Assembly: GCA_964556325.1 (NCBI GenBank)
Contig: CAZKVS010000003.1
Coordinates: forward strand, 4,219-68,218
Reading direction: 5' to 3'
Length of the DNA: 64,000 nucleotides
Origin: an uncultured Candidatus Saccharibacteria bacterium
GTDB lineage: Bacteria > Patescibacteriota > Doudnabacteria > UBA920
The notes beneath the pieces were generated by a model that did not search any database, had not been told where the DNA came from, and saw only the letters and a program-made list of their open reading frames with translations. Both the position numbers and the translations under genes were made by a program. Within the stretch, counting starts at the first letter, position 1. Each line of letters begins with the position of its first letter. Below, one piece after another: positions 46,107 through 64,000 of this stretch.

Positions 46107-46110
46107 ACTA

Positions 46111-46671: not shown

Positions 46672-46673
46672 GT

Positions 46674-48295: not shown

Positions 48296-49506
48296 TGAAT
48301 ATTGGTACCAATGTTATATATAGGAATAATAAGTGCATACGCCAAAGCACCGACAGCTCCACCTATAATTAATAGCAGTAACGGCTCAATAATGGAAGAC
48401 ATGTTTTTAAGCGTTGCATCAATTTGTGCTTCCATGTGCGTCGCGATTTGCTCTAATATAGTTTCCAACGTACCTGTTTCCTCGCCCACTTGCAACATTT
48501 GTACAATTAAAAATGGAAATAACTTCTCGTGTTCTGTGAGCACTTCAGTCAAAGGCTTTCCTACCTTCACACGCTCTGCGGAAGAGGCTATAGCTTCTTG
48601 ATACAAGGTATTAGGAATAGATTTACCCGCCACACCCAAACTTTCAACAATGGGAATACCACTCTTGAGCAAACTCGATAACACACGAGTAAAGCGAGCA
48701 ATGTTAATTTTAACGGTCAACGGACCAATACCCGGCATCACCAACGAGAGGCGGTACAACGCCTGTTTACCCATATCTGTCCGCACCAATGCCATAAAGG
48801 CCGGACCCGCCATAATCAACGCAAAGATAACCAAAACTGCGTGACCAGACATAAAATCGCTCAACCCAATAACAACCTTTGTAGCCGCTGGCATTTCCCC
48901 TCCAAAATCCTTAAAAGTGGCAGTAAGCTTTGGCAGCACAAAAATGGACATGAGCACTCCAATGGTAATCATGGCTATAAGAATAACCGAAGGATACATC
49001 ATGGCACCGCGGACACGGCTTCGTAAATCAGCCTCACGCTCAAGCTGTATCCCTAACTGACCCAAGCTCTCTTCCAGGTTCCCTGACATTTCCCCTACCT
49101 TTATCATGTTCACAAAGATATCGGAAAATACTTTGGGGTACTCTGCCATGACTTCATTGAGCTGTCGCCCGTTTTCTACACCATGCTGCAATGCAGACAA
49201 TATAGCTATAAACCTTCTGTTCTTTGTCTGCTTTGCGAGAATTTGCATAGACCGGGAAACAGGCACACCCGATTTCAACATGAGCTGCAAGTTCTCAACA
49301 AACACCAATTTTTCACCTAATGGTATAGACCGTAGACTCATGACAAAAGCGAGCGGATTCCACGCCTCTTTTGTCTCAATTAACTCTATCGGCGCCAAGC
49401 CTTGTTCCTTCAACTGATGACTCGCCACAGACAACGAACTAGCAGTTACCACACCCTGTTCTTTTTGGCCGTTATTCTTTAAAATTGTATAAGTAAATTT
49501 TGGCAA
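48292..49506 (-). CDS. pilC: type IV pilus platform protein PilC (GspF family); apparent TTG start
   Basis: 404 aa, two GspF-like halves, 3 TM. Confidence 0.8.
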   Translation of the reverse strand: MPKFTYTILKNNGQKEQGVVTASSLSVASHQLKEQGLAPIELIETKEAWNPLAFVMSLRSIPLGEKLVFVENLQLMLKSGVPVSRSMQILAKQTKNRRFIAILSALQHGVENGRQLNEVMAEYPKVFSDIFVNMIKVGEMSGNLEESLGQLGIQLEREADLRSRVRGAMMYPSVILIAMITIGVLMSIFVLPKLTATFKDFGGEMPAATKVVIGLSDFMSGHAVLVIFALIMAGPAFMALVRTDMGKQALYRLSLVMPGIGPLTVKINIARFTRVLSSLLKSGIPIVESLGVAGKSIPNTLYQEAIASSAERVKVGKPLTEVLTEHEKLFPFLIVQMLQVGEETGTLETILEQIATHMEAQIDATLKNMSSIIEPLLLLIIGGAVGALAYALIIPIYNIGTNIQ

Positions 49507-49512
49507 TCAGTT

Positions 49513-49552
49513 AGCTTCTGCAGCTTCGGAAGCTTCTACAGCTTCGGAAGCT
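49513..49552. repeat. 2.2 tandem copies of 18-nt unit AGCTTCT(G/A)CAGCTTCGGA, self-complementary
   Basis: read directly in the pilB-pilC spacer. Confidence 0.7.
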
Positions 49553-49558
49553 AATTAG

Positions 49559-51343: not shown

Positions 51344-51484
51344 TTGGACTGCAATTTCAAAATTTCGGCACCTTGTCCCAAAAATTTTTCTACCGTAACT
51401 ACTATTACGCTCTCAAAATTTTTGCGCCAATCTGCTCGAAATTTTTTAGTTTCGTCTACAAAGCATATTCGGCAATCGACCCGT

Positions 51485-51508
51485 CAGACCTGCGTGCCGC
51501 AGGTCTTT
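51485..51508. other. hairpin agacctgcg-tgcc-gcaggtct
   Basis: 9-bp stem in pilB upstream region. Confidence 0.4.
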
Positions 51509-51531
51509 CTTATATCTATAGTATACCATAA

Positions 51532-51622
51532 ATGCAGAATTATGAATTTAGAATTATGAAGCATGAAAGTTACACCTGTGGCCCACAATTCATAATTCCT
51601 GATTCATAATTCATTATTCTGC
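51532..51622. promoter_or_regulatory. ~90-bp imperfect palindrome built from AATTATGAA / TTCATAATT repeats (candidate operator or RNA stem-loop)
   Basis: cagaattatgaatttagaattatgaag ... caattcataattcctgattcataattcattattctg. Confidence 0.45.
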
Positions 51623-51629
51623 GTTCCGC

Positions 51630-52943
51630 CTATCGGCCTTTCCAAGCCAACACATAGTATAAAGTCTTTAAGATTATCTCCACATCAAACAGTAATGACC
51701 GGTGTTTGATGTAGTACAAGTCATATTGCAACTTCCGCCGTGTCTCGGCCACGGAAGATGCATAAGAATCATTGATTTGCGCCCAACCAGTTAAGCCCGG
51801 CTTAACCCAATGACGTTCGTCATAAAATGGTATAGTCTGGTTCAGACTTTCAACTATATGCGGCTGTTCCGGCCGCGGACCTACCAAGCTCATATTTCCC
51901 CGCAATAAGTTTAAACATTGAGGGAGTTCATCTAAACGACTGCGCCGCAAAATCTTACCGACCGGAGTAATTCTGCTGTCGTTTCGTGCGGTCCATGTAT
52001 TGGTTACAGTCCCCTGCATGGTCCGGTATTTATACACGAAAAAGCGCTTATTCCCCTCTCCCACTCGCTCCTGAATAAATAAAATATTCCCCCGCGAACT
52101 TAATTTTATTAAGAGAGCAATAAGCGGAAAAGTGAACACAAATACCCCCAAGCCCACGAGCCCTGCCACTATGTCCATACCCCGTTTAACAATAGTATAC
52201 AGTCGCTTTTCTTTATAACTCACATTCTCTAAAAACCACGTTTCTGTCACTTCCGAAAGGTACACCTTGCGAAGTAATCTTTCATAAAACAACGTATGAC
52301 TATAAAATACCACTCCGCGCTTCCGGAGCCGATAGAGCTGGCTCAGCACATCAGGCTTGAGGTGCAAATTATCTGGTACAATTATACCTGCATTTTTTAT
52401 AATCTCCGTGGTATCCAAGTTGTCTTCATGCAAGTGAGCTACAATGCGATATCCTAAAAAATCATGCTTTCGGATTTCACCCACAAGCTCGGCTAATTCA
52501 TTTTGAAAAGAAAACGCATATAAATATTCCACCATCCGATTCTTTAAAAAATACTTCACCACTAAATGCCAACCGAGGATTAGAACCGAAGCTATGCCAA
52601 GTATAATCAAAAGAAACCTACGGGGGGTAATAATAAGTCCGGGTTGCGAGTAAAAATACAGCACAGCAACTAACCCGTTAGTCGCCATAGCTGAAAACAA
52701 ATTTCGCAGAAGCACAGAGTAACGTCGAAAGGTAGAAACTTCAAATAAGTTATAGACGAAGAAAATAACCACCCAAGCCACAAACACCACGGAAAAAGCT
52801 CGGAGATGCGTAGCCCAACTATGTGTATCCAACCCGCCTTCATACCGTAATGTGACGGCGAGCCAGAGACTTACATACAAGAGTATGATGTCTGGAACTA
52901 GCACTAACCACAGAATGACATATTTTCGTACCATAAAAAACAA
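51630..52943 (-). CDS. polyprenyl-phosphate sugar phosphotransferase (WbaP/WcaJ-type bacterial sugar transferase)
   Basis: C-terminal LVGPRPE...GLTGWAQI sugar-transferase domain. Confidence 0.8.
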   Translation of the reverse strand: MFFMVRKYVILWLVLVPDIILLYVSLWLAVTLRYEGGLDTHSWATHLRAFSVVFVAWVVIFFVYNLFEVSTFRRYSVLLRNLFSAMATNGLVAVLYFYSQPGLIITPRRFLLIILGIASVLILGWHLVVKYFLKNRMVEYLYAFSFQNELAELVGEIRKHDFLGYRIVAHLHEDNLDTTEIIKNAGIIVPDNLHLKPDVLSQLYRLRKRGVVFYSHTLFYERLLRKVYLSEVTETWFLENVSYKEKRLYTIVKRGMDIVAGLVGLGVFVFTFPLIALLIKLSSRGNILFIQERVGEGNKRFFVYKYRTMQGTVTNTWTARNDSRITPVGKILRRSRLDELPQCLNLLRGNMSLVGPRPEQPHIVESLNQTIPFYDERHWVKPGLTGWAQINDSYASSVAETRRKLQYDLYYIKHRSLLFDVEIILKTLYYVLAWKGR

Positions 52944-52946
52944 AAT

Positions 52947-53705
52947 CTAGAAGTTCAAGTATAACCGTACTCGGAGGAACGCACTCGCCAGCCGCAGCCA
53001 TGGATAGCGCCCTGAATACGCCCGGATAAGACGTAACTGTTTGCGCAAAAAACTCTGAAATCTACCCTTAGTATACAAAGACTGCCGATATCGCACAAAA
53101 ACCTCAGGAAAATTGTACATGCGCCCCCGCAAACCCAATCGTAGCCATAAATCATAGTCTTCAGCAAAGTCTTCGCCATCAGACTTAAAGCCGCCAACCG
53201 CTAGAGCTACTTCCCGCCGAAACATAACAGTCGAAGTAAAAAAGTTGTTCCGAAATAACATTGTCCGTCGAATGGTCTGGTCCGATTCCGGTCGAAAAAC
53301 TTTTTTAGACTGCTCCATTATAGTTTTACCATCCGCTATTTCCATTGCACCTCCAAGCAATACAGTGTCTGGGTGCTCGTCCAAATACTGGACTTGTTTT
53401 TGGAGTTTACGAGTATCAAGCCATATATCATCGTCATCAAGCAGAGCCACGTATGTACCGGTAGAAGCCTGCAATGCTTCCTGCCTACTTCGAGTTATAC
53501 CAATAGACGTTGGGTGCGTAATAATTTTTACAGTGGGAACTACCTCTCGCAATCTGGCCAAGACAGCAGAAGTGGCATCGGATGAGCCGTCATTGACGAC
53601 GACTAGTTCTACGTCACTGAAAGTTTGGTTTGTAATGGACGTTAAAGCAGCAGGAAGCTGTGCTTCCCTATTTTTGGTAAGAATGATAACAGAAACAATA
53701 TGCAT
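52947..53705 (-). CDS. family 2 glycosyltransferase
   Basis: VIILTKNREAQL..VVNDGSSD..LDDDD. Confidence 0.75.
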   Translation of the reverse strand: MHIVSVIILTKNREAQLPAALTSITNQTFSDVELVVVNDGSSDATSAVLARLREVVPTVKIITHPTSIGITRSRQEALQASTGTYVALLDDDDIWLDTRKLQKQVQYLDEHPDTVLLGGAMEIADGKTIMEQSKKVFRPESDQTIRRTMLFRNNFFTSTVMFRREVALAVGGFKSDGEDFAEDYDLWLRLGLRGRMYNFPEVFVRYRQSLYTKGRFQSFLRKQLRLIRAYSGRYPWLRLASAFLRVRLYLNF

Positions 53706-53726
53706 AGAATGTACCGACCGACCCCC

Positions 53727-54461
53727 CTACTTTGTAAATACAAAACACCCGCAGGCGTACCGAGACTCAGCGAGGTCAGCGGGCTGCATAGCCGAATGAA
53801 AATGCCCCGCGTCGTCCACCCCCGCAAATTCTTCTAAGCGCAATTGGTCAAAATACTCTAAAATAGCCCCAGGATTATGAACACGGTGAGCATTAAAATA
53901 AGTTACTGACTGACCAACCGGCAGGGCAAAATACAACCTCCCGCCAGGTGCCAATACTCGCTGTAATTCTTTGCAGGCCTTCTTTGTACCTTCAGCATCC
54001 AACGGATCCCCGTACCTCCCGAGACCAATATGCTCAGCCACATGCAAACACGACAATGAATCTAACGAGTTATCCGCAAACGGCAACTCTAATATACTTC
54101 CCGGCTTGCAGGTAAAATTATTAAAGTCTAATGCAATGGGACGGATATCAACAAATGTCACAGGCACGACAGTTGTCGCCATGGATAAAAACCGGATGGA
54201 AGATCCCACGTCCACATGCTCCTTGGGTAGCCGTTGTTGTATGTGTTTAAAAGCCCAACGGTCCATGTACACGTAATGCTTATCAAACGTGTGCGCCGCA
54301 CTTGCTTTATCCCATAATTGAGGAAACAGGAGCAACTTCTGGGGGCTGCGTTGAGTACTAGTCAGATGCCGATACCGATATACATCTCGCACATACCAAA
54401 AAATTCCGCCACATAATTGGGTGCTCCATCTCCATATTTTTTTCAAAACTCTATAAGCCAT
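53727..54461 (-). CDS. class I SAM-dependent methyltransferase (putative sugar methyltransferase)
   Basis: VDVGSSIRF, LHVAEHIGLGRYGD, GGRLYFALP. Confidence 0.5.
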   Translation of the reverse strand: MAYRVLKKIWRWSTQLCGGIFWYVRDVYRYRHLTSTQRSPQKLLLFPQLWDKASAAHTFDKHYVYMDRWAFKHIQQRLPKEHVDVGSSIRFLSMATTVVPVTFVDIRPIALDFNNFTCKPGSILELPFADNSLDSLSCLHVAEHIGLGRYGDPLDAEGTKKACKELQRVLAPGGRLYFALPVGQSVTYFNAHRVHNPGAILEYFDQLRLEEFAGVDDAGHFHSAMQPADLAESRYACGCFVFTK

Positions 54462-55071
54462 GGGGGGTTATTCTAATAATATCTCCGGACACGTGCACCG
54501 ATAAATCCGGACGCGCCGTATGTAAGGTCTCCCGCAACCAATCTATGCGGGGATACCCTCCCTCACCCACGAATAAACGAGCATCGTCAATTAAAATGGC
54601 AAAAGGCACGTTGCATTGTTCAATAATGGCCCTTACTTCTGCCACCACTGGAGTGTCAATTTCTGCTCTAGCGGTTACACCACCAGAGTAGTGACCATCC
54701 AACCAAAACAACGTAGGTGCATGAAGTTGTGAAATGACATTCGGAAGCACGACTGCGCTATCCCCCTGCCATAGAACCACCGTCTGGTTCTCGCTAAATC
54801 GGGAGCGCGCGCGTCTGTAAAACTCAGTGCTTAGCTCTACCGAATGAATGCGCTCGAATACATCTTTCATGGCAAAAACCATATCACCCATATACGTACC
54901 CGTCTCGACTAAAACACCTAGCTTAAACTCCGCGGCGTACTGATGTATGGTCCGCTGCTTGTATAGATGCGGTGAAGGACCCACAGCAGGCAAGACCCTC
55001 CAACGGGCATAGTCAAGATACTGTCGGGTCCGCGATACAAGTGGGTTATACTTAATAAAATCTCGAATCAT
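54451..55071 (-). CDS. TylF/CmcI-like O-methyltransferase
   Basis: LVETGTYMGD SAM motif, LDGHYS. Confidence 0.5.
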   Translation of the reverse strand: MIRDFIKYNPLVSRTRQYLDYARWRVLPAVGPSPHLYKQRTIHQYAAEFKLGVLVETGTYMGDMVFAMKDVFERIHSVELSTEFYRRARSRFSENQTVVLWQGDSAVVLPNVISQLHAPTLFWLDGHYSGGVTARAEIDTPVVAEVRAIIEQCNVPFAILIDDARLFVGEGGYPRIDWLRETLHTARPDLSVHVSGDIIRITPHGL

Positions 55072-55072
55072 A

Positions 55073-55981
55073 CTATATGATAACTGCTAAAAACTTCTGA
55101 GCCGCCGCCTCGGGAGTAAAATTGTGCAAATGATAACTTCTGGGAGCATATTGCTCTAAACGACTCCAAAATACATCCCACTGAGCCGGTAAATCGAGCC
55201 CACTCGTGAAAGTCATACCACACTGGTCGGTTAAATAAGGCGCCGGACTACTGCCCGCATAGGCATACCTTTTGTGCTCCATTTTACCACCATCCCAAAC
55301 CAAAGTTGGGACATCCATCATCCATGCTTCATGCACTGCAAGACCCTGACTCTCAGAAGTAGATAAAACTATCATAGCATGCGCTTTAGATAAATCTGCA
55401 AGATACTCTGAACGCGCATACGATCCGTATGTATAGACTTTAGATGCAACTCCCCGACCGCTTAAAAAACTCAAAACATCGTTATATATATTCTCCGGAG
55501 CGTTCTTTTGATAGACCAAAACCAAGTTCTTTTCTGAAGAAACCGCCAACGGCAGAGTGGAAACACCTGCGGCCCACACTACAATACGGGTCCGAGCCGT
55601 GGGCATATACGTTAGACAGAAGTCTAGCACCCACTGAGACGGGACCAAAAACCGGTCAATGACCGGATGGAATATTATACCCCCATGCTCGTTGGGCATG
55701 GCTATGTTCGGCCCCGCAATTAAACTACCTATTCGTCCTCTCTGTTTTTGTTTAATAGCCCAGCGCAATGTTCCAACTCCGCTCAGGACACAGACGGTAA
55801 CTCCTAATGGTATATGACGAGCGTTCACTCGATAATCCTGACCAATGGCCGTCAACCCCTGACAAAGACTGTCAAATACCATTGCAGGTCCGCGAACTTG
55901 GCGGTGTATAATTCGCTTTATCCAAACCTTAACGCGCCGCGCCAAAGTAAATTCTTCATTATACAAATATATAGTTTGCAT
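55073..55981 (-). CDS. GT4-like glycosyltransferase (divergent)
   Basis: ESQGLAVHEAWMMDVPTLV resembles the GT-B E-x7-E region. Confidence 0.5.
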   Translation of the reverse strand: MQTIYLYNEEFTLARRVKVWIKRIIHRQVRGPAMVFDSLCQGLTAIGQDYRVNARHIPLGVTVCVLSGVGTLRWAIKQKQRGRIGSLIAGPNIAMPNEHGGIIFHPVIDRFLVPSQWVLDFCLTYMPTARTRIVVWAAGVSTLPLAVSSEKNLVLVYQKNAPENIYNDVLSFLSGRGVASKVYTYGSYARSEYLADLSKAHAMIVLSTSESQGLAVHEAWMMDVPTLVWDGGKMEHKRYAYAGSSPAPYLTDQCGMTFTSGLDLPAQWDVFWSRLEQYAPRSYHLHNFTPEAAAQKFLAVII

Positions 55982-56010
55982 ACCTAACCAAAATTTCCGA
56001 ACTGCTTGTT

Positions 56011-56688
56011 CTATAGCCGAATTTGTTCGCCTGTTGCTATATTATCCCACCACAACTCTAAAAATGGAACGTCTGTATAGTGAATGCCCCGCGACCGAAT
56101 AAACTTATATAAATCACGCTCTATGCTTAACTCTTGGGACACCAACTTTTGTGGACTAGCCTGTTCAGCGTAATCTCTTAACACGTGTGTTTCAGCCGCT
56201 ACCATACCTGTAGCGATAGTGGTCACATGCCACGGAAGTACCCCCCCTCGCATAACCCAGTCTTTCATTACCCTAAAATAGTTACCTGGCTGTGCGAGAA
56301 ATCTTTCAAAAAAAGAAAAGTTAATCAAATTCTGCCGGGGCTCGAAATGAACAACATGCCTATACTCTGTGGGTAACTTACGAAGTACGTGTTTCCATTG
56401 AATAGCAAGCCCTGCTCCTTTATTCTTTTTACCGAGTTCGTTGTCCCAAAAAAAATCGGTCCACTTAAAATTGGGAATATCTTGCATCGCGCGAATCAGT
56501 CTCCCGTCGAGCAGCTCAGGATGTTCAACGGTGTTGTCTACAGCAAAAACGTCAAACTCTGAATGCAAATCAACCAATTCTTTTATTTGCATTAAGCCAT
56601 TCACATATTGTGCAATTCTTGCTTCCCTGTTTGGAAATGAAGGCAAGGTCGTAACATACGCCGTAGAAATTAACAAAGCATATTTCAT
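56011..56688 (-). CDS. hypothetical protein in glycan cluster (start set at MKYALLI, 4 nt after degT stop)
   Basis: Trp-rich 225 aa; longer ORF-track version would overlap the DegT gene by 160 nt. Confidence 0.4.
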   Translation of the reverse strand: MKYALLISTAYVTTLPSFPNREARIAQYVNGLMQIKELVDLHSEFDVFAVDNTVEHPELLDGRLIRAMQDIPNFKWTDFFWDNELGKKNKGAGLAIQWKHVLRKLPTEYRHVVHFEPRQNLINFSFFERFLAQPGNYFRVMKDWVMRGGVLPWHVTTIATGMVAAETHVLRDYAEQASPQKLVSQELSIERDLYKFIRSRGIHYTDVPFLELWWDNIATGEQIRL

Positions 56689-56692
56689 TTTT

Positions 56693-57796
56693 TTACCAAC
56701 CCTGCTTAATAGACGCAACGATATATTCTCTATCCTCCGGGGTGACCCACCACCCAACCGGTATACACACCATCTCAGTAATAAACTTATCCAGCTCAGG
56801 AAGGGGCCTCTTATATGCTGCCACGGTCGTATGCTTGTCGTTTCGCTCATGTACACGAGATGCCATAATCCCCCGCTCTTTCATGGTCGCTATAAAGCGT
56901 TCTCTCTCTCGCACTTTAATCGTGTAAATCCAATATACACTCTCCCGATCAGGCTCTTCGGCAAGCAAAGCGAGGCCGGGTACTCCAGCCAACTGTTGAT
57001 TGTAAAATGCCGCATTCTCTTTATGTTTTGCGATATTGCCGTCTATATACTTCAACTGCTCAATCCCAATGGTGGCGGCGACATCGTTCATGTGATACTT
57101 AAGCCCCCACTCCAAAACGTCATTCTCACACCGAAAATCAGCTCTAGGGGTTTCTCGGTCAATACCGTACCAGCGTAGCAGTTTTGCACGTTTGTAATCA
57201 GCTTCGCTCTTTGTGACTACCAACCCCCCATCTACCGTGGTCATATGCTTAATAGCTTGAAAACTAAATACACCAAAATCAGACTGAGTTCCAACTGGCA
57301 CACCACGGTACGTTGAGCCAAAGGCATGAGCAGCATCTTCTATCACCTTTAAATTATGCTTTTTCGCAATTGACCATATAGCTTCCATGTCACATGGATA
57401 CCCACCCCAATGCACAACCATGATAGCTTTCGTTTTGTTAGTAATCAGCTGCTCAATACTAAGCGGATTTATATTGGCAGTTTGCTCATCGACATCGGCC
57501 CATACTGGAATAGCCCCTTGCGCCAAGATTGGCCAATTGGTCGCAGTGCAGGTTAATGCGGTTGTAATAACTTCATCGCCCGGCCCCACGTCTGCCAAAC
57601 GAAGCGCAAGCTGCAAGCCCGAGGTCGCTGAATTAACCGTAACCGTGTACGGGGTATGGAGCCGCTCGCTCAACGCGTGCTCAAACTGATCAACCTTAGG
57701 ACCCTGTCCAATGTAACCACTCATAAGAGTCTCGCGTAAAGGTTCCATAACGGACTCAGGCATAAATACTTTAAACAATACAATATTCTGTTTCAT
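56693..57796 (-). CDS. DegT/DnrJ/EryC1/StrS-family sugar aminotransferase (PseC-like)
   Basis: 367 aa; VNSATSGLQLALRL, internal lysine region. Confidence 0.85.
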   Translation of the reverse strand: MKQNIVLFKVFMPESVMEPLRETLMSGYIGQGPKVDQFEHALSERLHTPYTVTVNSATSGLQLALRLADVGPGDEVITTALTCTATNWPILAQGAIPVWADVDEQTANINPLSIEQLITNKTKAIMVVHWGGYPCDMEAIWSIAKKHNLKVIEDAAHAFGSTYRGVPVGTQSDFGVFSFQAIKHMTTVDGGLVVTKSEADYKRAKLLRWYGIDRETPRADFRCENDVLEWGLKYHMNDVAATIGIEQLKYIDGNIAKHKENAAFYNQQLAGVPGLALLAEEPDRESVYWIYTIKVRERERFIATMKERGIMASRVHERNDKHTTVAAYKRPLPELDKFITEMVCIPVGWWVTPEDREYIVASIKQGW

Positions 57797-57843
57797 AAAA
57801 ATCTGTGAATGCTATTTAAGGATTATATTCTAAGCCCACCAGT

Positions 57844-58698
57844 CTAGCCTGCATAAAAACTTGTACCAGATATGAACCCGCCAGGGGCGGCTGGATGAGG
57901 TATGTAAGAAAAATCATATTTATATCCTTTCTCCGCAAGCAAACGAGGAACGTTGTAATGCGTGTACCCTGGATGTTCCCGAGCAATTACAAGAGGTTTG
58001 TCCAGCAGCTCTACTTTATTTTCGCATGTCTGATAGAACCAAACAATATATTGCATTTTTAATTCTAACAGGTCTTGTACCGCGGATAATTCCAAGAAAT
58101 TCACCACCCCATTCAATACCAATATACAATGCTCGCGGCCATACTGAGCAATAATGCTTTCAAGCGCTGCCGTTGGCGACCAGTGAATATCAGGTCTTAG
58201 TTCTGCATTATAGCTCAACGTTTCTGGGCGAATTTCAAGACCATATACACCTGAAACTCGGGAGCCGTATCTATTGGCAAGCTCTTCTGTTAAAAGACCA
58301 GCCCCACAGCCGTAGTCTATAAGCACACACCTATGCGAATCACCAGCCTTGTCGAGCACGTTCCCAACCCGTTCCAAAGCACGACGATAGTTCTGTTCAT
58401 ACATCCCTCGCTTTGCGTTACCTCCGGCCAGGCGCTGTTTGAGGTCATATAAAAATCCTTCCGTTTCTGAGTATCCTGGACGGGTATAGCCAGCTAAGGA
58501 CTTCAAGTATAAACGATCCACAACATAGTAACTCAATCTCCGGGCTACCCATAGATACCGCGCATGCAAGTATAGCCACCGCCTGCCTTTTCCGCGGCGA
58601 AGCACATACTTATACATAGTCGCATACAAAGGATACAGAGGCAGTTCTACGAGTAGTACTAATCGGCTGAATAGCCTAGGCAACTTATTTCTATTCAT
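57844..58698 (-). CDS. class I SAM-dependent methyltransferase (start trimmed to MNRNK)
   Basis: VLIDYGCGAGLLTEEL motif I. Confidence 0.65.
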   Translation of the reverse strand: MNRNKLPRLFSRLVLLVELPLYPLYATMYKYVLRRGKGRRWLYLHARYLWVARRLSYYVVDRLYLKSLAGYTRPGYSETEGFLYDLKQRLAGGNAKRGMYEQNYRRALERVGNVLDKAGDSHRCVLIDYGCGAGLLTEELANRYGSRVSGVYGLEIRPETLSYNAELRPDIHWSPTAALESIIAQYGREHCILVLNGVVNFLELSAVQDLLELKMQYIVWFYQTCENKVELLDKPLVIAREHPGYTHYNVPRLLAEKGYKYDFSYIPHPAAPGGFISGTSFYAG

Positions 58699-60379
58699 GA
58701 GATAACCACTTAGTCGTATACAGAGGATTCTGCCATGCCGGGTTCCCTTCGTCCATAAAATCAACACTGGTGTAATCGTAGCCGGTTATCCGGTAGTTTA
58801 CCCAGTCAGCGAAGAAAGGACGATCTTGACATACAATACCAGCCAAGGCATCAACACCACATCCTACATCAATAAATACTGCATCTGTATATTCCTTAAG
58901 GAGAGGCAATAAAGCTAACTTCGCACTACCTGCTCCAACCAAGAAAATTTTGGCCTTGCTTTTCCGTAGTTGCGGGCCAATCGTTCGGGCTACTTGCTCA
59001 ACATCATCAGCCGCTCCCCGCTGTGGAACTTCTATGTAGTCAGTAAATTGTTCACATCCAATATATGCTTGATATTCCGAAGAACGCATTAACACCTGTA
59101 TAAGGTCAAGCTTCGGCTTGGCGGCAATAATCCCTATCTCGCCCGGAAAGTTTTTGAATATCCACTTAGTCCCGACCAATGCATATACCGCGTCCATGGG
59201 TGGCAAATCTTTTGCCAAAAGACGCTCTGCTTGTCTCTTATAGGCTCCTCGTTCTCGCATTGCAGCTACTGGAATCCAGACTTTCAAGAAAAACCAATTT
59301 CCCGCTATCCATCCAAACAGAGCGTCGAACGCATATTGCATATACAAAGTTGCCCTGGGCCGTTTCAGCTTTCGCCCCATATGTCGAAATATGCTGTCGG
59401 TAAACGTGTAAAATAGGAACTTCTTCCAACGGACAAACATGGGTCGCTCAAAGCTCAGGGCAAGCACATCATTCAGCCACACCAACTTGTAATATAAGTC
59501 CATCTGAATATGGCCATACTCTTTCGTAATTGCTCTTTTACCCGGCTTGGCACTCCCAATAGGTATCTGGCGAAGAAAATAATAATCACCGTCCGATATC
59601 CTTACTATACTTGCGCTCTTCTTTCCATCAACCAAAGCACGAACGTCCGTGCACAACTTCATAAACGATTGCTGAAACGACTTCGGGTATAACCCACGAC
59701 GCGTATAATTCTTTCTGTGGCCCGCATCGTCGGTATGTATTTTTTGTATAAAATAGGTTGTCTGAACGGGTAAGAAACTCAGTTTTCGAAAAACCATTAT
59801 ATCATCCTCCCACCACGGGTAACCAAACCTGCCTATATGCTCGCTCAAAGCCGCCGCGAGACTCGCCGTTGCTTCGGGCCAATAGACCAAACCTCGCTTA
59901 GCTAATTTGCCCTGGATATATTTCTTTGGCCTCGGGTTTTGATGTTGGTCATTATCGTGAGAAATTGCGTTTGACCAAGTTAATACAAGAATATCTTCCA
60001 CAGGTTTAGATACGTTATCCAAAAACACCTCTTCAGATGCTTTCTCAATGTGCTCTCCCACTTCGCTGCAATTTACTATGCTGTAGGTGCGGCCAAGGTC
60101 CTGGGGCTGGGCGAGATCCGTCAAGGTAATAGCATCCCGTACGGAAGGGTCGGCGTATTCTTGCGCCCACTTAAAATAGTCACATCCTTGCAACTGAACA
60201 TGGGGATGACGTTTTTTAATACTCTCTAAAAGCCTGCCGTTGCTACACCCAATGTCTAAAAAGCTATCAACCAGAGAAAAATCAAACACCGTCTCTAGGG
60301 AATCTAAATAAAACTTGTACGGCAACAAGCTACGATCATATTCCTGTTCTGTATACTCTTTTTCCAACTTAGTGTTCAT
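58691..60379 (-). CDS. fusion protein: N-terminal class I SAM methyltransferase + ~350-aa C-terminal domain of unknown function
   Basis: FLDIGCSNGRLLESI motif I; C-terminal IFLVGAGSAKLALLPLL..VFIDVGCG Rossmann-like. Confidence 0.5.
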   Translation of the reverse strand: MNTKLEKEYTEQEYDRSLLPYKFYLDSLETVFDFSLVDSFLDIGCSNGRLLESIKKRHPHVQLQGCDYFKWAQEYADPSVRDAITLTDLAQPQDLGRTYSIVNCSEVGEHIEKASEEVFLDNVSKPVEDILVLTWSNAISHDNDQHQNPRPKKYIQGKLAKRGLVYWPEATASLAAALSEHIGRFGYPWWEDDIMVFRKLSFLPVQTTYFIQKIHTDDAGHRKNYTRRGLYPKSFQQSFMKLCTDVRALVDGKKSASIVRISDGDYYFLRQIPIGSAKPGKRAITKEYGHIQMDLYYKLVWLNDVLALSFERPMFVRWKKFLFYTFTDSIFRHMGRKLKRPRATLYMQYAFDALFGWIAGNWFFLKVWIPVAAMRERGAYKRQAERLLAKDLPPMDAVYALVGTKWIFKNFPGEIGIIAAKPKLDLIQVLMRSSEYQAYIGCEQFTDYIEVPQRGAADDVEQVARTIGPQLRKSKAKIFLVGAGSAKLALLPLLKEYTDAVFIDVGCGVDALAGIVCQDRPFFADWVNYRITGYDYTSVDFMDEGNPAWQNPLYTTKWLSHE

Positions 60380-60391
60380 GGGTAAATAGTT

Positions 60392-61927
60392 TCAATATCG
60401 CTTAATAAAAGACAGAATATAATTCTTTACTAACAGACTGTCTTCTTGTTCGAAAAAACCAAATACTTTATATAACCCTAAAAAGATCAGCACAGCAAGC
60501 GGGCCCAGAACCACCACCTCAACCAAGCCATTAAGCAGAGGCGCCAGTCCCCAATGATACACTACCCAAAAAACCGCGCTCGTACATACCGCTTTACATA
60601 TGAACTGTATATAAAAACGCGCTCTGTGTGGCAACTTCAATATGCGCTGTTCTGTCCACACAATACACCCTATGACAGGTAAAACGGCAAAAAGATACGC
60701 CCACGCGGCCCCTGTGATCCCATATCGAGGTACTGCTATTAGCAACAATCCCACATTCAACACGGCCATGGCACAGGACCACTTCATAAGCTGGGAAATG
60801 TACCCATAACCCGACAAAAAGTTTTGTAAAACTCCGTACAGAGCTAAGAAAAAGTTAGTCCCAACCAACAACACTAAGACGCGCGCACCCTGTTCAGCAA
60901 ATTGTGGTCCAAGCCAAAAACGGAGAAGCGGATCAGCGAACAGCGCGAGCGGCACTGCCATTGCCAGAGTTATGACCAGCATATTTCTCATAACCCGAGT
61001 GTAGACCACTTTGGCTTTTTCGATAGAGCTAACCCCCTGGAGCGAACTCATGAGAGGAAACAACACGCTAGTTGTGCTAGATCCAACTCCATTAATCTTT
61101 TCCGCAACATTGCCGGGCAAACTATAGTAAGACAGCTGTACCGGACTTAAATACAAAGGAATGATAAGTCGGTCAAATTGAGCCAAAGTGTTGTTGGATA
61201 AGTTTGTTATAAAAAACTGGATACCATATCTAAAAGAGCTCTTTATTTCCATTGAATCCCAGCTGAAATGGAATGAATAGTGGGGCAATATATGAGTAAG
61301 ACGCCAACTATATACCACCATACAAACTGTCGCGATGATCATGTTTGAGATGAGTAAAGCCTGTAGGCCAAAACCCTGCACCACCAGGAGTAAACTCACT
61401 AAACTTGCGACTATGTTTTGGACCAAGCCCATACTGACCGTAATGTCATACCGCTGTAACGATTTTAAAACATAGACCGCTACTAAACTCACTGAAGTAG
61501 CCACGTAGGCCAACCCACTATATATAAACGCCTTAAGCACATAGGCGTGCTGATCAGCGGCAACGTGAAACCAATTCAGCCCTACTAGTCCCAACACTAA
61601 AAAGATTAGAAAACCCACTAGTCCCAATATGAAAAAAATAGTGTAGGCCGATCCAAGTAAACGTCTCTGTCCCAACAGGTCTTGCTTCGCAACATACTCC
61701 GCCATCTTTTTTACAATGGCCATCCCCACTCCAAAGTCCATGAGGTTTAAAAAGCCCATAATGGTAGCTGTGAGAAGTAATATACCATAATCGCGAACCC
61801 CAAGCCGGTGAACAATTATCGGGGTAATAAGGATCGTAAATACTAACGGAAAGATATAGCCAAAAAAAGAATAGCCAAAGTTCTTAAGCGTCCGCGCGGA
61901 AAGTGTTTTTGGGTCATCCATTGTCAT
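60392..61927 (-). CDS. Wzx-type oligosaccharide flippase (MOP superfamily)
   Basis: 511 aa, ~12-14 TM. Confidence 0.65.
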   Translation of the reverse strand: MTMDDPKTLSARTLKNFGYSFFGYIFPLVFTILITPIIVHRLGVRDYGILLLTATIMGFLNLMDFGVGMAIVKKMAEYVAKQDLLGQRRLLGSAYTIFFILGLVGFLIFLVLGLVGLNWFHVAADQHAYVLKAFIYSGLAYVATSVSLVAVYVLKSLQRYDITVSMGLVQNIVASLVSLLLVVQGFGLQALLISNMIIATVCMVVYSWRLTHILPHYSFHFSWDSMEIKSSFRYGIQFFITNLSNNTLAQFDRLIIPLYLSPVQLSYYSLPGNVAEKINGVGSSTTSVLFPLMSSLQGVSSIEKAKVVYTRVMRNMLVITLAMAVPLALFADPLLRFWLGPQFAEQGARVLVLLVGTNFFLALYGVLQNFLSGYGYISQLMKWSCAMAVLNVGLLLIAVPRYGITGAAWAYLFAVLPVIGCIVWTEQRILKLPHRARFYIQFICKAVCTSAVFWVVYHWGLAPLLNGLVEVVVLGPLAVLIFLGLYKVFGFFEQEDSLLVKNYILSFIKRY

Positions 61928-62796
61928 GCACGATTATATATTCGACCATAGTGTTTTGATATATTTTCAAAACTAACAGTATCCAAACGTTCCTTTAAAA
62001 TGTCCATGGAGAACGTATTCCGAAAATCTAAAAAAGCGGGAGGGGTAGACTCTGTCCACATGCCGTACTGTAACTGTTCTGGATTGAGCATGCCCTTCTC
62101 AATGCAATATTCTACATCTGACGGGTGCATACCCAGGACGTTTATACGGCCGGGCCAACGACCGGAAAGCGCGCTCTCCTCAACCCAATCAAAGGACAAT
62201 GGATTTTTCGCCCCAATAATCTCCCATCCGTCATGTTTTGCCCACCAGGAACCCCGAAGCTCCAACTGCCAGGGCGTCCACCAGTGCCAAAAGTATTTCA
62301 AAAAGTACTCTCGATTCCATACGGATGTCTGGCACACCAGACGATACGAAGCCTGGGGCAAAAGGGCATAGACTGTCCCCTTCTCGGTTTTTTCTATTTC
62401 CGTAAAGCCTGCAAGAGGTGACCACCCCAGGCCTATCCTACCCACTTTTTTGTGAGCTCGAGCATACGCAAGTAGCCGCTCAAGCACCTCTTCGTTTAAA
62501 GCCTGATTCGGCAAATAATCATCCAGGGTTAAAATAAAATACTCACTCGTTTCATGGTGTTTAATATACTGGTATATATCTCTTGTCCACCTGCGAACAT
62601 CGTTTTTCTGCCTAATAGAAACAAAGTTAAAATTGTTTGGCAGCACGACCGACAATTGCGATTGCCCTAAAATGGTGAAAGACTGCTCCTCTTTTCTGTG
62701 CCAATACTTATTATATAAATAAGCAACTGTAGGCAGGATATGCGCGGTCGCGTCAGAAGTGACAATATAAAATGGTAAGTTCTGTGACATATACAC
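61924..62796 (-). CDS. hypothetical protein, possible GT-A-like glycosyltransferase
   Basis: FILTLDDYLP DXD-like motif, Trp-rich. Confidence 0.35.
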   Translation of the reverse strand: MYMSQNLPFYIVTSDATAHILPTVAYLYNKYWHRKEEQSFTILGQSQLSVVLPNNFNFVSIRQKNDVRRWTRDIYQYIKHHETSEYFILTLDDYLPNQALNEEVLERLLAYARAHKKVGRIGLGWSPLAGFTEIEKTEKGTVYALLPQASYRLVCQTSVWNREYFLKYFWHWWTPWQLELRGSWWAKHDGWEIIGAKNPLSFDWVEESALSGRWPGRINVLGMHPSDVEYCIEKGMLNPEQLQYGMWTESTPPAFLDFRNTFSMDILKERLDTVSFENISKHYGRIYNRA

Positions 62797-62800
62797 CCAA

Positions 62801-63757
62801 TTATCGCACCGAGGGTTGATTGACTATCAAATCCGATATATCAACAGCCGTCATAGGTATGGCATTGGCCGTAGAATAGCAAACTAACACAGGCTCTACA
62901 GCCGGTTGATTAAACGTAATAATAAAATGATCAATGTCATTATATTTTTTTGCTTCTGTATACGGAAGTTCTAAGTCACCAATAAGAAACTCGTCAACCC
63001 GCTCACCAGGACGCTGACCCGTGTACTCCACACTCCCACCTTTAGCCTGCACCCACGTAGTAGCAATATCACCAAGCCTCGCCACCTTCATTGCCCGAGA
63101 CAATACCCGACCGTGTAATTCGTCAATGTGAGTAATGGCAGTTTCAATAAGCTTTACTGCGTCTCCTACAGTGAAGAAGAAACGTCGCATGTCTGGATCA
63201 GTCACCGTAATGGTATTGGTTTGTGCGTGTCGCTCTTTCCACACGGGCAACACAGAACCCGTTGACCACGCCACATTTCCATAACGGACACATACAAACT
63301 GCGTCGAGGCTTTACTATCAAGCCCGCAGAATATCTTTTCCATGACCGCCTTGGACATACCATACATATTGCGCACCGGCGGCGCTGCTTTATCAGTAGA
63401 AATACCTACCACCACTTCTACATTTTGATCCAAAGCGACGCGGGCAACATTCTGAGAACCAAGTACGTTAATATCCACACATTCCATCGGATACTTTTCC
63501 GACAAATCTACATATTTGGTTGCCGCAGCATGAATGATAATATGGGGACGAAACTCATTGACCACGTCGCGAACAGACTCAATGTTTGTAACATCAAGTG
63601 GCGCGACAACACAACCGGTTGCTTTACCGGCTTCCAACATTTGTTTATTATTTCTTGCGCCCAATATTACTGTGTAGCGGTCTTTAAGCGAAACGGCCAA
63701 ATTTCTGCCCAAAAAACCAGTGCCGCCGGTAATCAATATTGTCTTTTTTTCACTCAT
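62801..63757 (-). CDS. UDP-GlcNAc 4,6-dehydratase-like NAD-dependent epimerase/dehydratase (PseB/CapD-like)
   Basis: ILITGGTGFLG, YGMSK, VRYGNVAWSTGSVLPVW, TVTDPDMRRFF. Confidence 0.75.
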   Translation of the reverse strand: MSEKKTILITGGTGFLGRNLAVSLKDRYTVILGARNNKQMLEAGKATGCVVAPLDVTNIESVRDVVNEFRPHIIIHAAATKYVDLSEKYPMECVDINVLGSQNVARVALDQNVEVVVGISTDKAAPPVRNMYGMSKAVMEKIFCGLDSKASTQFVCVRYGNVAWSTGSVLPVWKERHAQTNTITVTDPDMRRFFFTVGDAVKLIETAITHIDELHGRVLSRAMKVARLGDIATTWVQAKGGSVEYTGQRPGERVDEFLIGDLELPYTEAKKYNDIDHFIITFNQPAVEPVLVCYSTANAIPMTAVDISDLIVNQPSVR

Positions 63758-63767: not shown

Positions 63768-64000
63768 TTACCACTCTTTAACGGTATCGCGGGTCTTTGC
63801 CTTTACTACCTGATACGCGTCGGTTGCCTTCTTGTCCAAGCTGGGCGATACCAATTTCAGGATGTCGTGACCTAAAATACGATATTGCTTGCCTATCTTA
63901 TTGGCATTCAATAAACCGCTTTTTAATATACGCTTCATGGTACTATTACTTATTTTAAGTAATTCCTGAGTTTCTTTGGTCGTATATACTTCATTTGGAC
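63768..64000 (-). CDS. excisionase/MerR-type helix-turn-helix protein, C-terminal part (5' end off-window)
   Basis: minus-strand translation ...ISNSTMKRILKSGLLNANKIGKQYRI...; stop at 63768-63770. Confidence 0.4.
   Translation of the reverse strand, partial: PNEVYTTKETQELLKISNSTMKRILKSGLLNANKIGKQYRILGHDILKLVSPSLDKKATDAYQVVKAKTRDTVKEW

What the first reader, a model, noticed from the sequence alone, without database searches (positions are those of the whole stretch)
51630..63757. Twelve-gene glycan island with four methyltransferases and PseB/PseC-like amino-deoxy-sugar enzymes, co-directional with and running into the type IV pilus operon
From the sequence, all genes between 63757 and 45783 are on the minus strand with tiny or overlapping spacers. 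In order they are: a PseB-like 4,6-dehydratase (RYGNV..GSV, TVTDPDMRRFF), a putative GT-A protein, a Wzx flippase, a methyltransferase fused to an unknown 350-aa domain, a methyltransferase, a DegT/PseC-like aminotransferase, an unknown protein, a GT4, a TylF/CmcI-like O-methyltransferase, a methyltransferase, a GT2, a WbaP-like priming transferase, and then pilB-pilC-pilM-pilN-pilO. By inference the pathway builds an undecaprenyl-linked oligosaccharide containing a 4-amino-4,6-dideoxy-hexose plus rhamnose (rmlBCDA lies at 27361-30548), heavily O- and/or N-methylated. It would be flipped by Wzx and ligated by the Wzy/WaaL-like protein at 32299. Physical coupling to the pilus assembly genes suggests pilin or surface-protein O-glycosylation. 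Four methyltransferases in one glycan cluster is unusual, and the composition does not match a canonical pseudaminic acid, legionaminic acid or bacillosamine locus. PseH, PseG and PseI equivalents are absent.
Basis: partly seen in the sequence, partly recalled or inferred. Interest (0 to 1): 0.65.

Follow-up and report, generated by a model that had tools for sequence, protein, structure and literature searches.

The report
Variable surface-glycan gene cluster beside pilus operon
An ultra-small (Candidatus Doudnabacteria) bacterium carries a real twelve-gene cluster for a methylated amino-sugar surface glycan, built partly from uncharacterised enzyme families; it sits next to the type IV pilus operon but is probably transcribed separately from it.

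Summary
The twelve minus-strand genes (51630-63757) exist as described, followed by pilB-C-M-N-O. The window is from a Candidatus Doudnabacteria (CPR/Patescibacteria) genome.

Gene calls mostly hold:
- A large priming phosphoglycosyltransferase, a GT2, a Wzx-type flippase, a DegT aminotransferase and a PseB/CapE-family dehydratase are supported.
- Four methyltransferase domains are present: three supported, one weak.
- The "unknown 350-aa domain" models confidently and resembles GT-D/GT-E glycosyltransferases (DUF1792, TagA/WecG).
- The "putative GT-A" and the unknown protein stay unassigned.
- No pseudaminic-acid equivalog cut-off is met.

Four methyltransferases are not unusual here. The module of methyltransferase-glycosyltransferase fusion, DegT and unknown 225-aa protein, plus a short GT4-like protein and a DUF268 methyltransferase, recurs in glycan clusters of other CPR contigs with no pilus genes within 10 kb.

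The pilus link is partly real. A homologous priming transferase lies directly upstream of pilB in two Doudnabacteria clades, and a Wzy_C-TPR protein does in a basal clade. A third clade has neither.

The 286-bp spacer holds long hairpins and an extended -10 element present before pilB in all seven clade relatives. So the pilus operon probably has its own promoter. Pilin glycosylation remains untested.

The parts
62801..63757 (-). P1: short-chain dehydrogenase of the PseB/CapE/FnlA UDP-HexNAc 4,6-dehydratase family
   Evidence: Polysacc_synt_2 at 203.7 bits. PseB scores 160.7 bits and FnlA 119.8, both far below the equivalog cut-offs. Best PDB matches are CapE at 4e-36 and FlaA1 at 4e-31.
61924..62796 (-). 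P2: protein of unknown function; small family whose only source-named member is from Candidatus Paceibacterota
   Evidence: No Pfam, NCBIfam or PDB hit. Only 32 clusters in 5.8 billion proteins, none with a Pfam domain. No relation to a GT2 profile. Invariant L-D-D-Y at residues 91-94.
60392..61927 (-). P3: Wzx-type (MOP superfamily) flippase
   Evidence: Polysacc_synt_3 at 84 bits and Polysacc_synt at 69 bits, both above cut-off.
59768..60379 (-). P4 N-terminal domain (about residues 1-204): class I SAM-dependent methyltransferase
   Evidence: Methyltransf_23 at 26.8 bits against a cut-off of 27. 40-42 of 46 family members hit methyltransferase models. The AF2 model has pLDDT 91, and Foldseek matches DnrK/RdmB-type methyltransferases at E 3e-7.
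58691..59767 (-). P4 C-terminal domain (residues 205-562): GT-D/GT-E-like glycosyltransferase domain with a helical insert of about 100 residues
   Evidence: AF2 pLDDT 86. Best PDB folds are DUF1792 (4phr, 4pfx; E 0.01, probability 0.99, TM 0.32-0.42), then TagA/TarA. 32 of 46 members weakly hit WecG/TagA/CpsF and 13 of 46 hit GT-D-like. Invariant D263-G-D265, K423, D504, R520.
57844..58698 (-). P5: probable class I methyltransferase (divergent)
   Evidence: Methyltransf_31, _25 and _32 at E 1.6e-4 to 2.3e-3, all below cut-off. Motif I LIDYGCGAG is present. Weak PDB hits are to UbiG-type methyltransferases only.
56693..57796 (-). P6: DegT/PseC-family PLP sugar aminotransferase
   Evidence: DegT_DnrJ_EryC1 at 326 bits. 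PseC scores 253.9, ArnB 218.5 and LegC 214.9, all below the equivalog cut-offs.
56011..56688 (-). P7: 225-aa protein of unknown function that follows DegT in related clusters
   Evidence: No Pfam or PDB hit, even with a 45-member profile. 170 representatives in 1.84 billion proteins. It sits directly after DegT in L001, L003, L086 and L089.
55073..55981 (-). P8: short GT4-like (GT-B) glycosyltransferase
   Evidence: GT4-conflict and EpsE hits are weak. The family profile against a bona fide GT4 profile gives probability 88%, E 3e-6, over the E-x7-E half.
54451..55071 (-). P9: class I methyltransferase of Methyltransf_24 (COMT/TylF/CmcI-clan) type
   Evidence: More than 7,500 homologous clusters. 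13 of 32 members hit PF13578. Profile hits in the PDB are all SAM methyltransferases.
53727..54461 (-). P10: DUF268/Methyltransf_11 methyltransferase
   Evidence: DUF268 at 46.1 bits and Methyltransf_11 at 35 bits, both above cut-off.
52947..53705 (-). P11: GT2 glycosyltransferase
   Evidence: Glycos_transf_2 at 106.7 bits.
51630..52943 (-). P12: large polyprenyl-phosphate glycosyl-1-phosphate transferase (priming enzyme)
   Evidence: Bac_transf at 199.9 bits. TIGR03025 EPS_sugtrans at 303.6 bits, above the 295.55 cut-off. The WbaP and WcaJ equivalog cut-offs are not met.
51344..51629 (-). Structured spacer between P12 and pilB. It holds an AT-rich inverted repeat (51531-51625), an extended -10 TGGTATACT (51520-51528), a perfect 9-bp hairpin (51486-51506) and a second inverted repeat (51359-51444).
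   Evidence: RNA fold z-score is -6.0. The -10 element is invariant in 8 of 8 clade loci. It is found in 58 of 74 pilB loci against 4.6 expected.
45783..51343 (-). Type IV pilus assembly operon: pilB (49559-51343), pilC (48292-49506), pilM (47231-48295), pilN (46674-47231), pilO (46111-46671) and a 107-aa ORF
   Evidence: T2SSE at 433 bits, T2SSF at 187 bits, and PilM TIGR01175 at 169.9 against a cut-off of 133. PilN and PilO hits are weak. The gene order is conserved in 80 related loci.
27361..30548 (+). rmlB-C-D-A: dTDP-rhamnose genes, also a possible source of dTDP-4-keto-6-deoxyglucose
32299..33600 (-). Wzy_C-domain membrane protein: candidate polymerase, ligase or oligosaccharyltransferase
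   Evidence: Wzy_C at 82 bits. No NCBIfam cut-off is met.
63771..64000 (-). HTH_17 DNA-binding protein gene, cut by the window end, directly upstream of P1
   Evidence: HTH_17 at 39.4 bits; sequence.

Best explanation
This is a surface-glycan biosynthesis locus of a Candidatus Doudnabacteria (CPR) bacterium.

Inferred pathway:
- P12 primes a polyprenyl phosphate with a sugar-1-phosphate.
- The chain is extended by GT2 (P11), the short GT4-like P8 and the GT-D/GT-E-like domain of P4. P2 and P7 may also contribute.
- P1 and P6 make a 4-amino-4,6-dideoxy-hexose. The substrate is either UDP-HexNAc via P1, or dTDP-4-keto-6-deoxyglucose from RmlB.
- No N-acetyltransferase is present. The four methyltransferase domains (P4 N-terminus, P5, P9, P10) therefore probably methylate sugar hydroxyls and possibly the amino group.
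- Wzx (P3) flips the finished unit. A Wzy_C protein encoded elsewhere polymerises or ligates it to an unknown acceptor.

Shown: the gene content and the family assignments. Inferred: the substrates, the order of steps and the acceptor.

The locus has two parts. The pilB-proximal part (P12, P11, P10, P9, P8) is shared with other Doudnabacteria. The distal part (P7 to P1) is shared in part with other CPR contigs (two are labelled Parcubacteria/Paceibacterota).

The pilus operon next door is probably a separate transcription unit. The adjacency most likely reflects an inherited neighbourhood of cell-surface genes whose glycan content turns over quickly. It does not look like a dedicated pilin-glycosylation operon.
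For: - Family assignments.
- P4 structure and folds.
- P8 is GT4-like and P9 is Methyltransf_24-like.
- The P4 family is full-length in 55 clusters; the four named by a source are all CPR.
- In seven P4 contexts, DegT lies within three genes in six (five genes away in L087). P7 homologues occur in six, P8 homologues in six and DUF268 in five. Wzy_C-TPR occurs in five. None has pilus genes within 10 kb.
- The island upstream of P12 differs almost completely between species whose PilB is 75-94% identical.
- Two or three methyltransferase families recur in sister islands, including FkbM-type.
- The spacer carries hairpins and the conserved -10 element.
- The window holds no pilin.
Against: - The adjacency of pilB to a glycan-assembly gene is far more frequent than chance. 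29 of 49 loci with at least 5 kb upstream carry the priming transferase or Wzy_C-TPR within 10 kb. The arrangement differs between clades, which could reflect selection for linkage.
- The closest relative (L004) also has a GT2 gene directly after pilC.
- No transcript data exist, so read-through from P12 into pilB is not excluded. The hairpin after P12 lacks a clear U-tract.
- Sugar identities, methylation sites and acceptor are all inferred.
- P2 and P7 have no assignable function.
Confidence: 0.62

Rival explanations
1. The island supplies the glycan for O-glycosylation of type IV pilins or other pilus proteins. The lipid-linked oligosaccharide would be flipped by Wzx and transferred by a Wzy_C-type oligosaccharyltransferase. 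That enzyme would be the 433-aa protein at 32299-33600 here, or Wzy_C-TPR in relatives. The linkage to pilB would be maintained because the two systems work together.
For: - The priming transferase lies directly upstream of pilB in 8 of 8 loci of the window's clade and in most of a second clade.
- Wzy_C-TPR lies directly upstream of pilB in seven basal loci, with the priming transferase divergent in six of them.
- L004 has a GT2 after pilC.
- The island has no polymerase or chain-length regulator, which fits a short oligosaccharide.
- The known pilin O-oligosaccharyltransferases PglL and TfpO carry Wzy_C domains (established knowledge).
- Pilin O-glycosylation has been predicted in silico for Saccharibacteria (PMC12206443).
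Against: - Neither the window nor the pil operons of the two linked clades hold a pilin gene.
- A whole clade with the same pil operon lacks any glycan gene upstream.
- The same gene set occurs without pilus genes in seven other CPR loci.
- pilB has its own conserved promoter.
- The Wzy_C protein has no PglL-specific hit.
- holA downstream is conserved to a similar degree, so synteny is generally stable in this group.
Confidence: 0.17
2. The distal half (P1 to P7, with the HTH_17 gene at its end) is a horizontally acquired cassette. It would have been swapped into a resident glycan locus from another CPR lineage, and the locus would behave like a hypervariable O-antigen or capsule locus under diversifying selection. 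This is compatible with the best explanation. It concerns origin rather than function.
For: - P1 to P5 have no homologue in any of the 80 Doudnabacteria pilB loci.
- Their relatives (45-55% identity) sit in other CPR contigs, those with a source name being Parcubacteria, Paceibacterota or Gracilibacteria.
- Island content differs between close species.
- An HTH_17 (excisionase-type fold) gene flanks the island.
Against: - There is no GC or skew discontinuity across 51-64 kb.
- No integrase, tRNA target or direct repeats were seen at the borders.
- The distal flank lies outside the window.
Confidence: 0.3
3. The cluster decorates a non-carbohydrate product, such as a small-molecule natural product, rather than a cell-surface glycan. 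The methyltransferases and the aminotransferase would tailor a deoxy-amino sugar, as in macrolide pathways.
For: DegT plus N- and O-methyltransferases are typical of deoxy-amino-sugar tailoring. The closest folds of the P4 N-terminal domain are anthracycline methyltransferases.
Against: - A polyprenyl-phosphate priming transferase and a Wzx flippase are present, which are hallmarks of lipid-linked export.
- No PKS, NRPS or aglycone genes appear in the window.
- CPR genomes are small.
Confidence: 0.03

Closest known systems
Wzx/Wzy-dependent O-antigen, capsule and exopolysaccharide loci primed by large phosphoglycosyltransferases (WbaP/WcaJ/CpsE type)
   Same: Both have a large Bac_transf priming enzyme (TIGR03025 cut-off met), a Wzx-type flippase, GT2 and GT4-type transferases, and sugar-modifying enzymes in one co-directional block. 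Both show hypervariable content between close relatives next to conserved flanking genes.
   Different: The island has no Wzy polymerase and no chain-length regulator; the only Wzy_C protein is 18 kb away. The WbaP and WcaJ equivalog cut-offs are not met. The host is a CPR bacterium for which no outer membrane/LPS or capsule has been shown (general knowledge, not tested here), so the acceptor is unknown.
Pseudaminic acid (PseB/PseC) and bacillosamine (PglF/PglE/PglD) pathways
   Same: Both pair a Polysacc_synt_2-family 4,6-dehydratase with a DegT aminotransferase, which predicts a 4-amino-4,6-dideoxy-HexNAc intermediate.
   Different: PseB and PseC score far below their equivalog cut-offs. There is no PseH/PglD acetyltransferase and no PseG, PseI or PseF. 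Methyltransferases stand where an N-acetyltransferase would be expected.
Pilin O-glycosylation systems (Neisseria pgl/PglL, Pseudomonas TfpO/PilO, Acinetobacter TfpO)
   Same: Lipid-linked oligosaccharide genes are present, and a Wzy_C-domain protein is encoded in the same genome region. Relatives show physical association with type IV pilus genes.
   Different: In the known systems the oligosaccharyltransferase sits beside the pilin gene. Here the neighbour is the assembly ATPase pilB, no pilin is nearby, and no PglL-specific domain is detected.
GT-D (DUF1792 of Streptococcus parasanguinis dGT1) and GT-E (TagA/TarA/WecG, GT26) glycosyltransferases
   Same: These are the best structural matches of the P4 C-terminal domain. 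Weak Pfam hits to GT-D-like and WecG/TagA/CpsF occur across the family. An invariant acidic D-G-D follows the first strand. GT-E enzymes act on polyprenyl-linked acceptors, which fits this pathway (PMC6493773).
   Different: The similarity is marginal (E 0.01, TM 0.32-0.42). The P4 domain has a helical insert of about 100 residues and is fused to an N-terminal methyltransferase, an architecture not described for either family. No activity has been tested.

Membership tests
Wzx/Wzy-dependent lipid-linked glycan assembly locus | Polyprenyl-phosphate phosphoglycosyltransferase (priming enzyme) | tested here: met
   P12: Bac_transf at 199.9 bits; TIGR03025 at 303.6 against a cut-off of 295.55.
Wzx/Wzy-dependent lipid-linked glycan assembly locus | Wzx (MOP-family) flippase | tested here: met
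   P3: Polysacc_synt_3 at 84.1 and Polysacc_synt at 69.2 bits, both above cut-off.
Wzx/Wzy-dependent lipid-linked glycan assembly locus | Wzy polymerase or ligase and a chain-length regulator in the locus | tested here: not met
   None among P1 to P12. One Wzy_C protein lies 18 kb away at 32299-33600. No Wzz-type hit in the scanned ORFs.
Pseudaminic acid biosynthesis (PseB, C, H, G, I, F) | PseB and PseC equivalogs | tested here: not met
   TIGR03589 at 160.7 against 407.75; TIGR03588 at 253.9 against 423.5.
Pseudaminic acid biosynthesis (PseB, C, H, G, I, F) | PseH, PseG, PseI (NeuB-type synthase) and PseF present | tested here: not met
   No such family among the ORFs scanned. The only GNAT (41015-41689) is Acetyltransf_3 and lies outside the island.
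Bacillosamine (Pgl) pathway | PglD-type N-acetyltransferase following the aminotransferase | tested here: not met
   No acetyltransferase domain in P1 to P12.
Pilin O-glycosylation system (PglL/TfpO type) | O-oligosaccharyltransferase with PglL-specific features, adjacent to a pilin gene | tested here: not met
   The Wzy_C protein hits only PF04932 and lies 18 kb from the pil genes. No prepilin motif in any frame of the window.
Pilin O-glycosylation system (PglL/TfpO type) | Pilin carries the glycan | not testable with these tools
   This needs glycoproteomics. No pilin sequence from this genome is available.
GT-D glycosyltransferases (DUF1792) | GT-D fold | tested here: inconclusive
   Top Foldseek hits are 4phr and 4pfx at E 0.01, probability 0.99, but TM is only 0.32-0.42. 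PF22882 scores 15.8 against a 27-bit cut-off, and 13 of 46 members hit it. A profile search of PDB sequences found nothing.
GT-D glycosyltransferases (DUF1792) | Asp-X-Glu metal-binding motif (PMC6493773) | tested here: inconclusive
   An invariant D263-G-D265 follows the first strand of the domain. Structural equivalence to the DXE motif was not verified.
GT-E glycosyltransferases (WecG/TagA/CpsF, GT26) | Match to the family profile and fold | tested here: inconclusive
   32 of 46 family members hit PF03808 at E up to 0.1, best 9.9e-5. The window protein itself does not hit. Foldseek gives TagA at E 0.029, probability 0.99, over 173 columns.
Class I SAM-dependent methyltransferases (four domains claimed) | Profile or fold match with a SAM-binding motif | tested here: met
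   P10 is above Pfam cut-offs. The P4 N-terminal domain matches by fold at E 3e-7, and 40-42 of 46 members hit methyltransferase models. The P9 family gives 13 of 32 Methyltransf_24 hits. P5 has only sub-threshold hits plus motif I, so three are firm and one is probable.
Type IV pilus assembly operon | PilB ATPase, PilC platform and PilM/N/O alignment proteins in order | tested here: met
   T2SSE at 433.5 bits, T2SSF at 186.8, and PilM TIGR01175 at 169.9 against a cut-off of 133. PilN and PilO are weak. The order is conserved in relatives.

The most novel reading that the evidence does not exclude
Doudnabacteria, and possibly CPR bacteria more widely, O-glycosylate their type IV pili or other host-contact surface proteins with a heavily methylated amino-sugar oligosaccharide. 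A CPR-specific enzyme set would make it: the methyltransferase/GT-D-E-like fusion, the P7 and P2 families, and Wzy_C(-TPR) as the transferase. The recurrent placement of the priming transferase or Wzy_C-TPR directly upstream of pilB would reflect that functional coupling.
Probability: 0.15. Interest if true: 0.65.

Novelty: new variant of a known kind. Interest (0 to 1): 0.4.

Why it matters
All cultivated CPR bacteria are episymbionts that live attached to host cells (PMC12206443), and their type IV pili have been shown to mediate host contact in Saccharibacteria (PMC12206443). Their surface glycans are essentially uncharacterised.

This locus shows three things:
- A recurring, CPR-wide gene set for a methylated amino-sugar glycan. 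It includes two families with no annotation at all, and a conserved fusion of a methyltransferase to a GT-D/GT-E-like domain.
- Content that turns over rapidly between close species, as expected for a surface antigen under selection.
- A repeated, though not universal, placement next to the pilus assembly operon.

The locus gives concrete candidates for biochemical work (P4, P7, P2). It also sets up a testable question: are CPR pili or other surface proteins glycosylated? It does not reveal a new mechanism.

Tried and rejected
- Exact look-up of the window's contig failed for P4 and returned only 1-2 kb contigs for P2. The sequence beyond the window end, and the genome's pilins, could not be read.
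- The full-length P4 fold search was swamped by methyltransferase hits, so the C-terminal domain was modelled separately.
- P2 and P7 stayed unassigned after every test tried: Pfam scans of all family members, profile searches of PDB sequences and hhalign against a GT2 profile, all negative. The 'GT-A' label for P2 is therefore dropped.
- P9 shows no pairwise similarity to a CmcI-family protein from L001. P5 does not match the syntenic methyltransferase of L086.
- The metagenome scan with P12 returned only nine distant relatives (42% identity or less). None has pilB, so it says nothing about linkage.
- I looked for a recombination breakpoint at the P12-pilB junction between the window and L004. 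DNA identity is about 76% in pilB and pilC and 60-70% in P12, which fits weaker constraint, so I make no replacement claim.
- Generic sigma-70 and terminator scans over the region were at background level. The promoter argument rests on the comparative alignment instead.
- An rRNA or tRNA methyltransferase reading was rejected (RlmA at 24 bits against a cut-off of 303).

Full report
**What is in the sequence**

The region 45783-63757 is one uninterrupted run of minus-strand ORFs. Profile searches give the following:
- P1, 62801-63757: an SDR of the Polysacc_synt_2 family.
- P2, 61924-62796: no hit.
- P3, 60392-61927: a Wzx-type flippase.
- P4, 58691-60379: an N-terminal methyltransferase plus about 350 further residues.
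- P5, 57844-58698: weak methyltransferase hits.
- P6, 56693-57796: DegT, 326 bits.
- P7, 56011-56688: no hit.
- P8, 55073-55981: a weak hit to the C-terminal half of GT4.
- P9, 54451-55071: no hit.
- P10, 53727-54461: DUF268 and Methyltransf_11.
- P11, 52947-53705: GT2.
- P12, 51630-52943: Bac_transf. It passes the TIGR03025 cut-off for exopolysaccharide-type polyprenyl glycosylphosphotransferases but not the WbaP or WcaJ equivalog cut-offs.

pilB, pilC, pilM, pilN, pilO and a 107-aa ORF follow. rmlBCDA (27361-30548) and a Wzy_C protein (32299-33600) are also confirmed.

Spacers within the island run from an 11-bp overlap to 47 bp. The P12-pilB spacer is 286 bp, the largest in the run.

**Organism**

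The 80 closest PilB loci in the species-representative genome collection are mostly Candidatus Doudnabacteria MAGs; many others carry an 'uncultured Candidatus Saccharibacteria' label. The best has 94% PilB identity. The window is therefore from a CPR/Patescibacteria genome.

**The fused protein, P4**

P4 has 55 full-length homologues at 31-53% identity. The four that carry a source-given name are Candidatus Parcubacteria, Paceibacterota or Gracilibacteria, plus one JGI functional label.
- The AlphaFold model built on 46 sequences is confident (pLDDT 91, pTM 0.92).
- The N-terminal domain matches class I methyltransferases at E 3e-7.
- The C-terminal domain was modelled alone (pLDDT 86). Its best solved-structure matches are DUF1792, the founding GT-D enzyme, at E 0.01 and probability 0.99 but TM only 0.32-0.42. 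TagA/TarA, the GT-E fold, comes next.
- Scanning all 46 family members gives weak hits to WecG/TagA/CpsF in 32 and to GT-D-like in 13.
- An invariant D263-G-D265 follows the first strand of the domain.

I read this as a divergent glycosyltransferase of the GT-D/GT-E structural class carrying a helical insert of about 100 residues. Membership of either family is not established. According to the TagA paper, GT-E enzymes work on polyprenyl-linked acceptors and GT-D uses an Asp-X-Glu metal site (PMC6493773).

**The other weak calls**

- P9 belongs to a very large family of more than 7,500 clusters. 13 of 32 sampled members hit Methyltransf_24, and the profile finds only SAM methyltransferases in the PDB.
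- P8's family matches a true GT4 profile over the E-x7-E Rossmann half (probability 88%, E 3e-6).
- P5 has motif I (LIDYGCGAG) and three sub-threshold Pfam methyltransferase hits, so it is a probable methyltransferase only.
- P2 belongs to a family of 32 clusters, the only named one being Candidatus Paceibacterota. P7 has 170 representatives. Neither has any Pfam or PDB relative, nor any relation to a GT2 profile. The 'putative GT-A' label for P2 is unsupported.
- P1 and P6 fall well below the PseB and PseC equivalog cut-offs. P1 is about equally similar to CapE, FnlA-type and FlaA1 structures.
- No PseH, PseG, PseI or PseF, and no acetyltransferase, is in the island.

**A recurring CPR gene set**

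I read seven contigs that carry a P4 homologue; the two with a source name are Candidatus Parcubacteria and Paceibacterota (L001-L003 and L086-L089). Profile searches of their ORFs show:
- DegT within three genes of P4 in six of the seven (five genes away in L087).
- A P7 homologue in six, directly after DegT in four, as in the window.
- P8 homologues in six and DUF268 in five.
- Wzy_C-TPR fusion proteins in five.
- Three or four methyltransferase genes per cluster in L086, L087 and L088.

None of the seven has a pilus gene within 10 kb. Four methyltransferases are therefore typical of this cluster type, not unusual. The P4-(methyltransferase)-DegT-P7 module is the conserved core of an uncharacterised pathway.

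**Is the pilus linkage conserved?**

I compared all 80 PilB loci with the window and mapped the result onto a PilB tree.
- The P12-type priming transferase lies directly upstream of pilB, on the same strand with a gap of 60-450 bp, in all eight loci of the window's clade. The same holds in most of a second clade.
- A third clade, nested between these two, has instead ABC/MacB transporters, a small TPR protein or large surface proteins with no family match.
- In seven basal loci the upstream neighbour is a Wzy_C-TPR protein of 715-840 aa. In six of the seven the priming transferase is divergent just beyond it.
- Overall, 29 of 49 loci with at least 5 kb of upstream sequence carry one of these two genes within 10 kb. 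That is far above what a few such genes in a genome of about 1 Mb would give by chance. However, these loci represent only a handful of independent lineages, and downstream synteny (holA) is conserved to a similar degree.
- Only the proximal genes (P12, P11, P10, sometimes P9, and P8) are shared.
- The rest of the island differs almost completely, even between species with 75-94% PilB identity. This is the pattern of a hypervariable surface-antigen locus.

**The junction**

The 286-bp spacer holds four elements, in order from P12 to pilB:
- a 37-nt-arm AT-rich inverted repeat built from the motif GAATTATGAAT, starting immediately after the P12 stop;
- an extended -10 element, TGGTATACT;
- a perfect 9-bp hairpin;
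- a second long inverted repeat.

The spacer RNA folds much better than shuffled controls (z = -6.0). Aligning the eight loci of the clade shows that the TGnTATAnT element is invariant in position, while the upstream palindromes are species-specific. An extended -10 of this form lies within 250 nt upstream of pilB in 58 of 74 loci, against 4.6 expected, whatever gene lies upstream. The simplest reading is that the pilus operon has its own promoter and the island ends with a hairpin. This rests on sequence comparison, not on transcript data.

**Pilins**

No prepilin motif exists in any frame of the window. Relatives in the basal clade carry pilin-like genes between pilC and pilM; the linked clades do not. 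In the literature held here, CPR pilin glycosylation has only been predicted in silico (PMC12206443). I found nothing on CPR glycan clusters of this type.

**Conclusion**

The locus is best explained as a Wzx-dependent surface-glycan locus that makes a methylated oligosaccharide containing an amino-dideoxy sugar. It combines ordinary enzymes with several uncharacterised CPR families. Its adjacency to the pilus operon is an old and recurrent feature of Doudnabacteria genomes, but it is not universal and probably not transcriptional. Pilin glycosylation remains a minority possibility, which I put at roughly one in six. The finding is a new variant of a known kind and of moderate interest.

Noticed in passing
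window 51531-51625 and the equivalent spacers in L004-L008 and L051: Each species in the clade has a different long AT-rich palindrome or tandem repeat right after the priming-transferase stop codon and just upstream of the pilB -10 element. The window has GAATTATGAAT five times. L051 has about 18 copies of (A/G)AAACAT. L008 has an unrelated palindrome. The structure is conserved but the sequence is not, so this could be a terminator or insulator, or an operator.
   Followed up: partly
window 26178-26325 (-): There is a c-di-AMP (ydaO-type) riboswitch hit just above the gathering score (40.4 against 38 bits). No convincing ORF lies downstream on the same strand.
   Followed up: partly
window 12463-16704 (-): A compact minus-strand cluster holds two class I/II aminotransferases, a protein with a weak DIT1/PvcA-like hit and a CbiA/ParA-like ATPase. 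It may be a small amino-acid-derived metabolite pathway.
   Followed up: no
window 63771-64000 (-): An HTH_17 (excisionase/MerR-like) gene runs off the window end, directly upstream of the first island gene. It could be a regulator of the island or a remnant of a mobile element.
   Followed up: partly
L055, L060, L061, L066, L070, L072, L077 (upstream of pilB at 10001): In basal Doudnabacteria a Wzy_C-TPR fusion protein of 715-840 aa lies directly upstream of pilB. In six of the seven loci (all but L066) a Bac_transf gene is divergent just beyond it. The same Wzy_C-TPR architecture accompanies P4-type clusters in other CPR contigs (L001-L003, L088, L089).
   Followed up: partly
L004 4372-5200 (+): In the closest relative (PilB 94% identical), pilC is followed by a GT2 glycosyltransferase gene instead of pilM.
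   Followed up: partly
L001, L087, L089: Several P4-type clusters have no Bac_transf gene within the ±10 kb read. They carry instead a UbiA-family prenyltransferase, an unannotated protein of 515-640 aa and a small GtrA/EamA-like membrane protein. This is reminiscent of decaprenyl-phosphate sugar donor pathways.
   Followed up: no
window 34751-36358 (+): A fused MFS/spermidine-synthase-like membrane protein (NF037959, 235.7 bits) lies near the Wzy_C gene.
   Followed up: no
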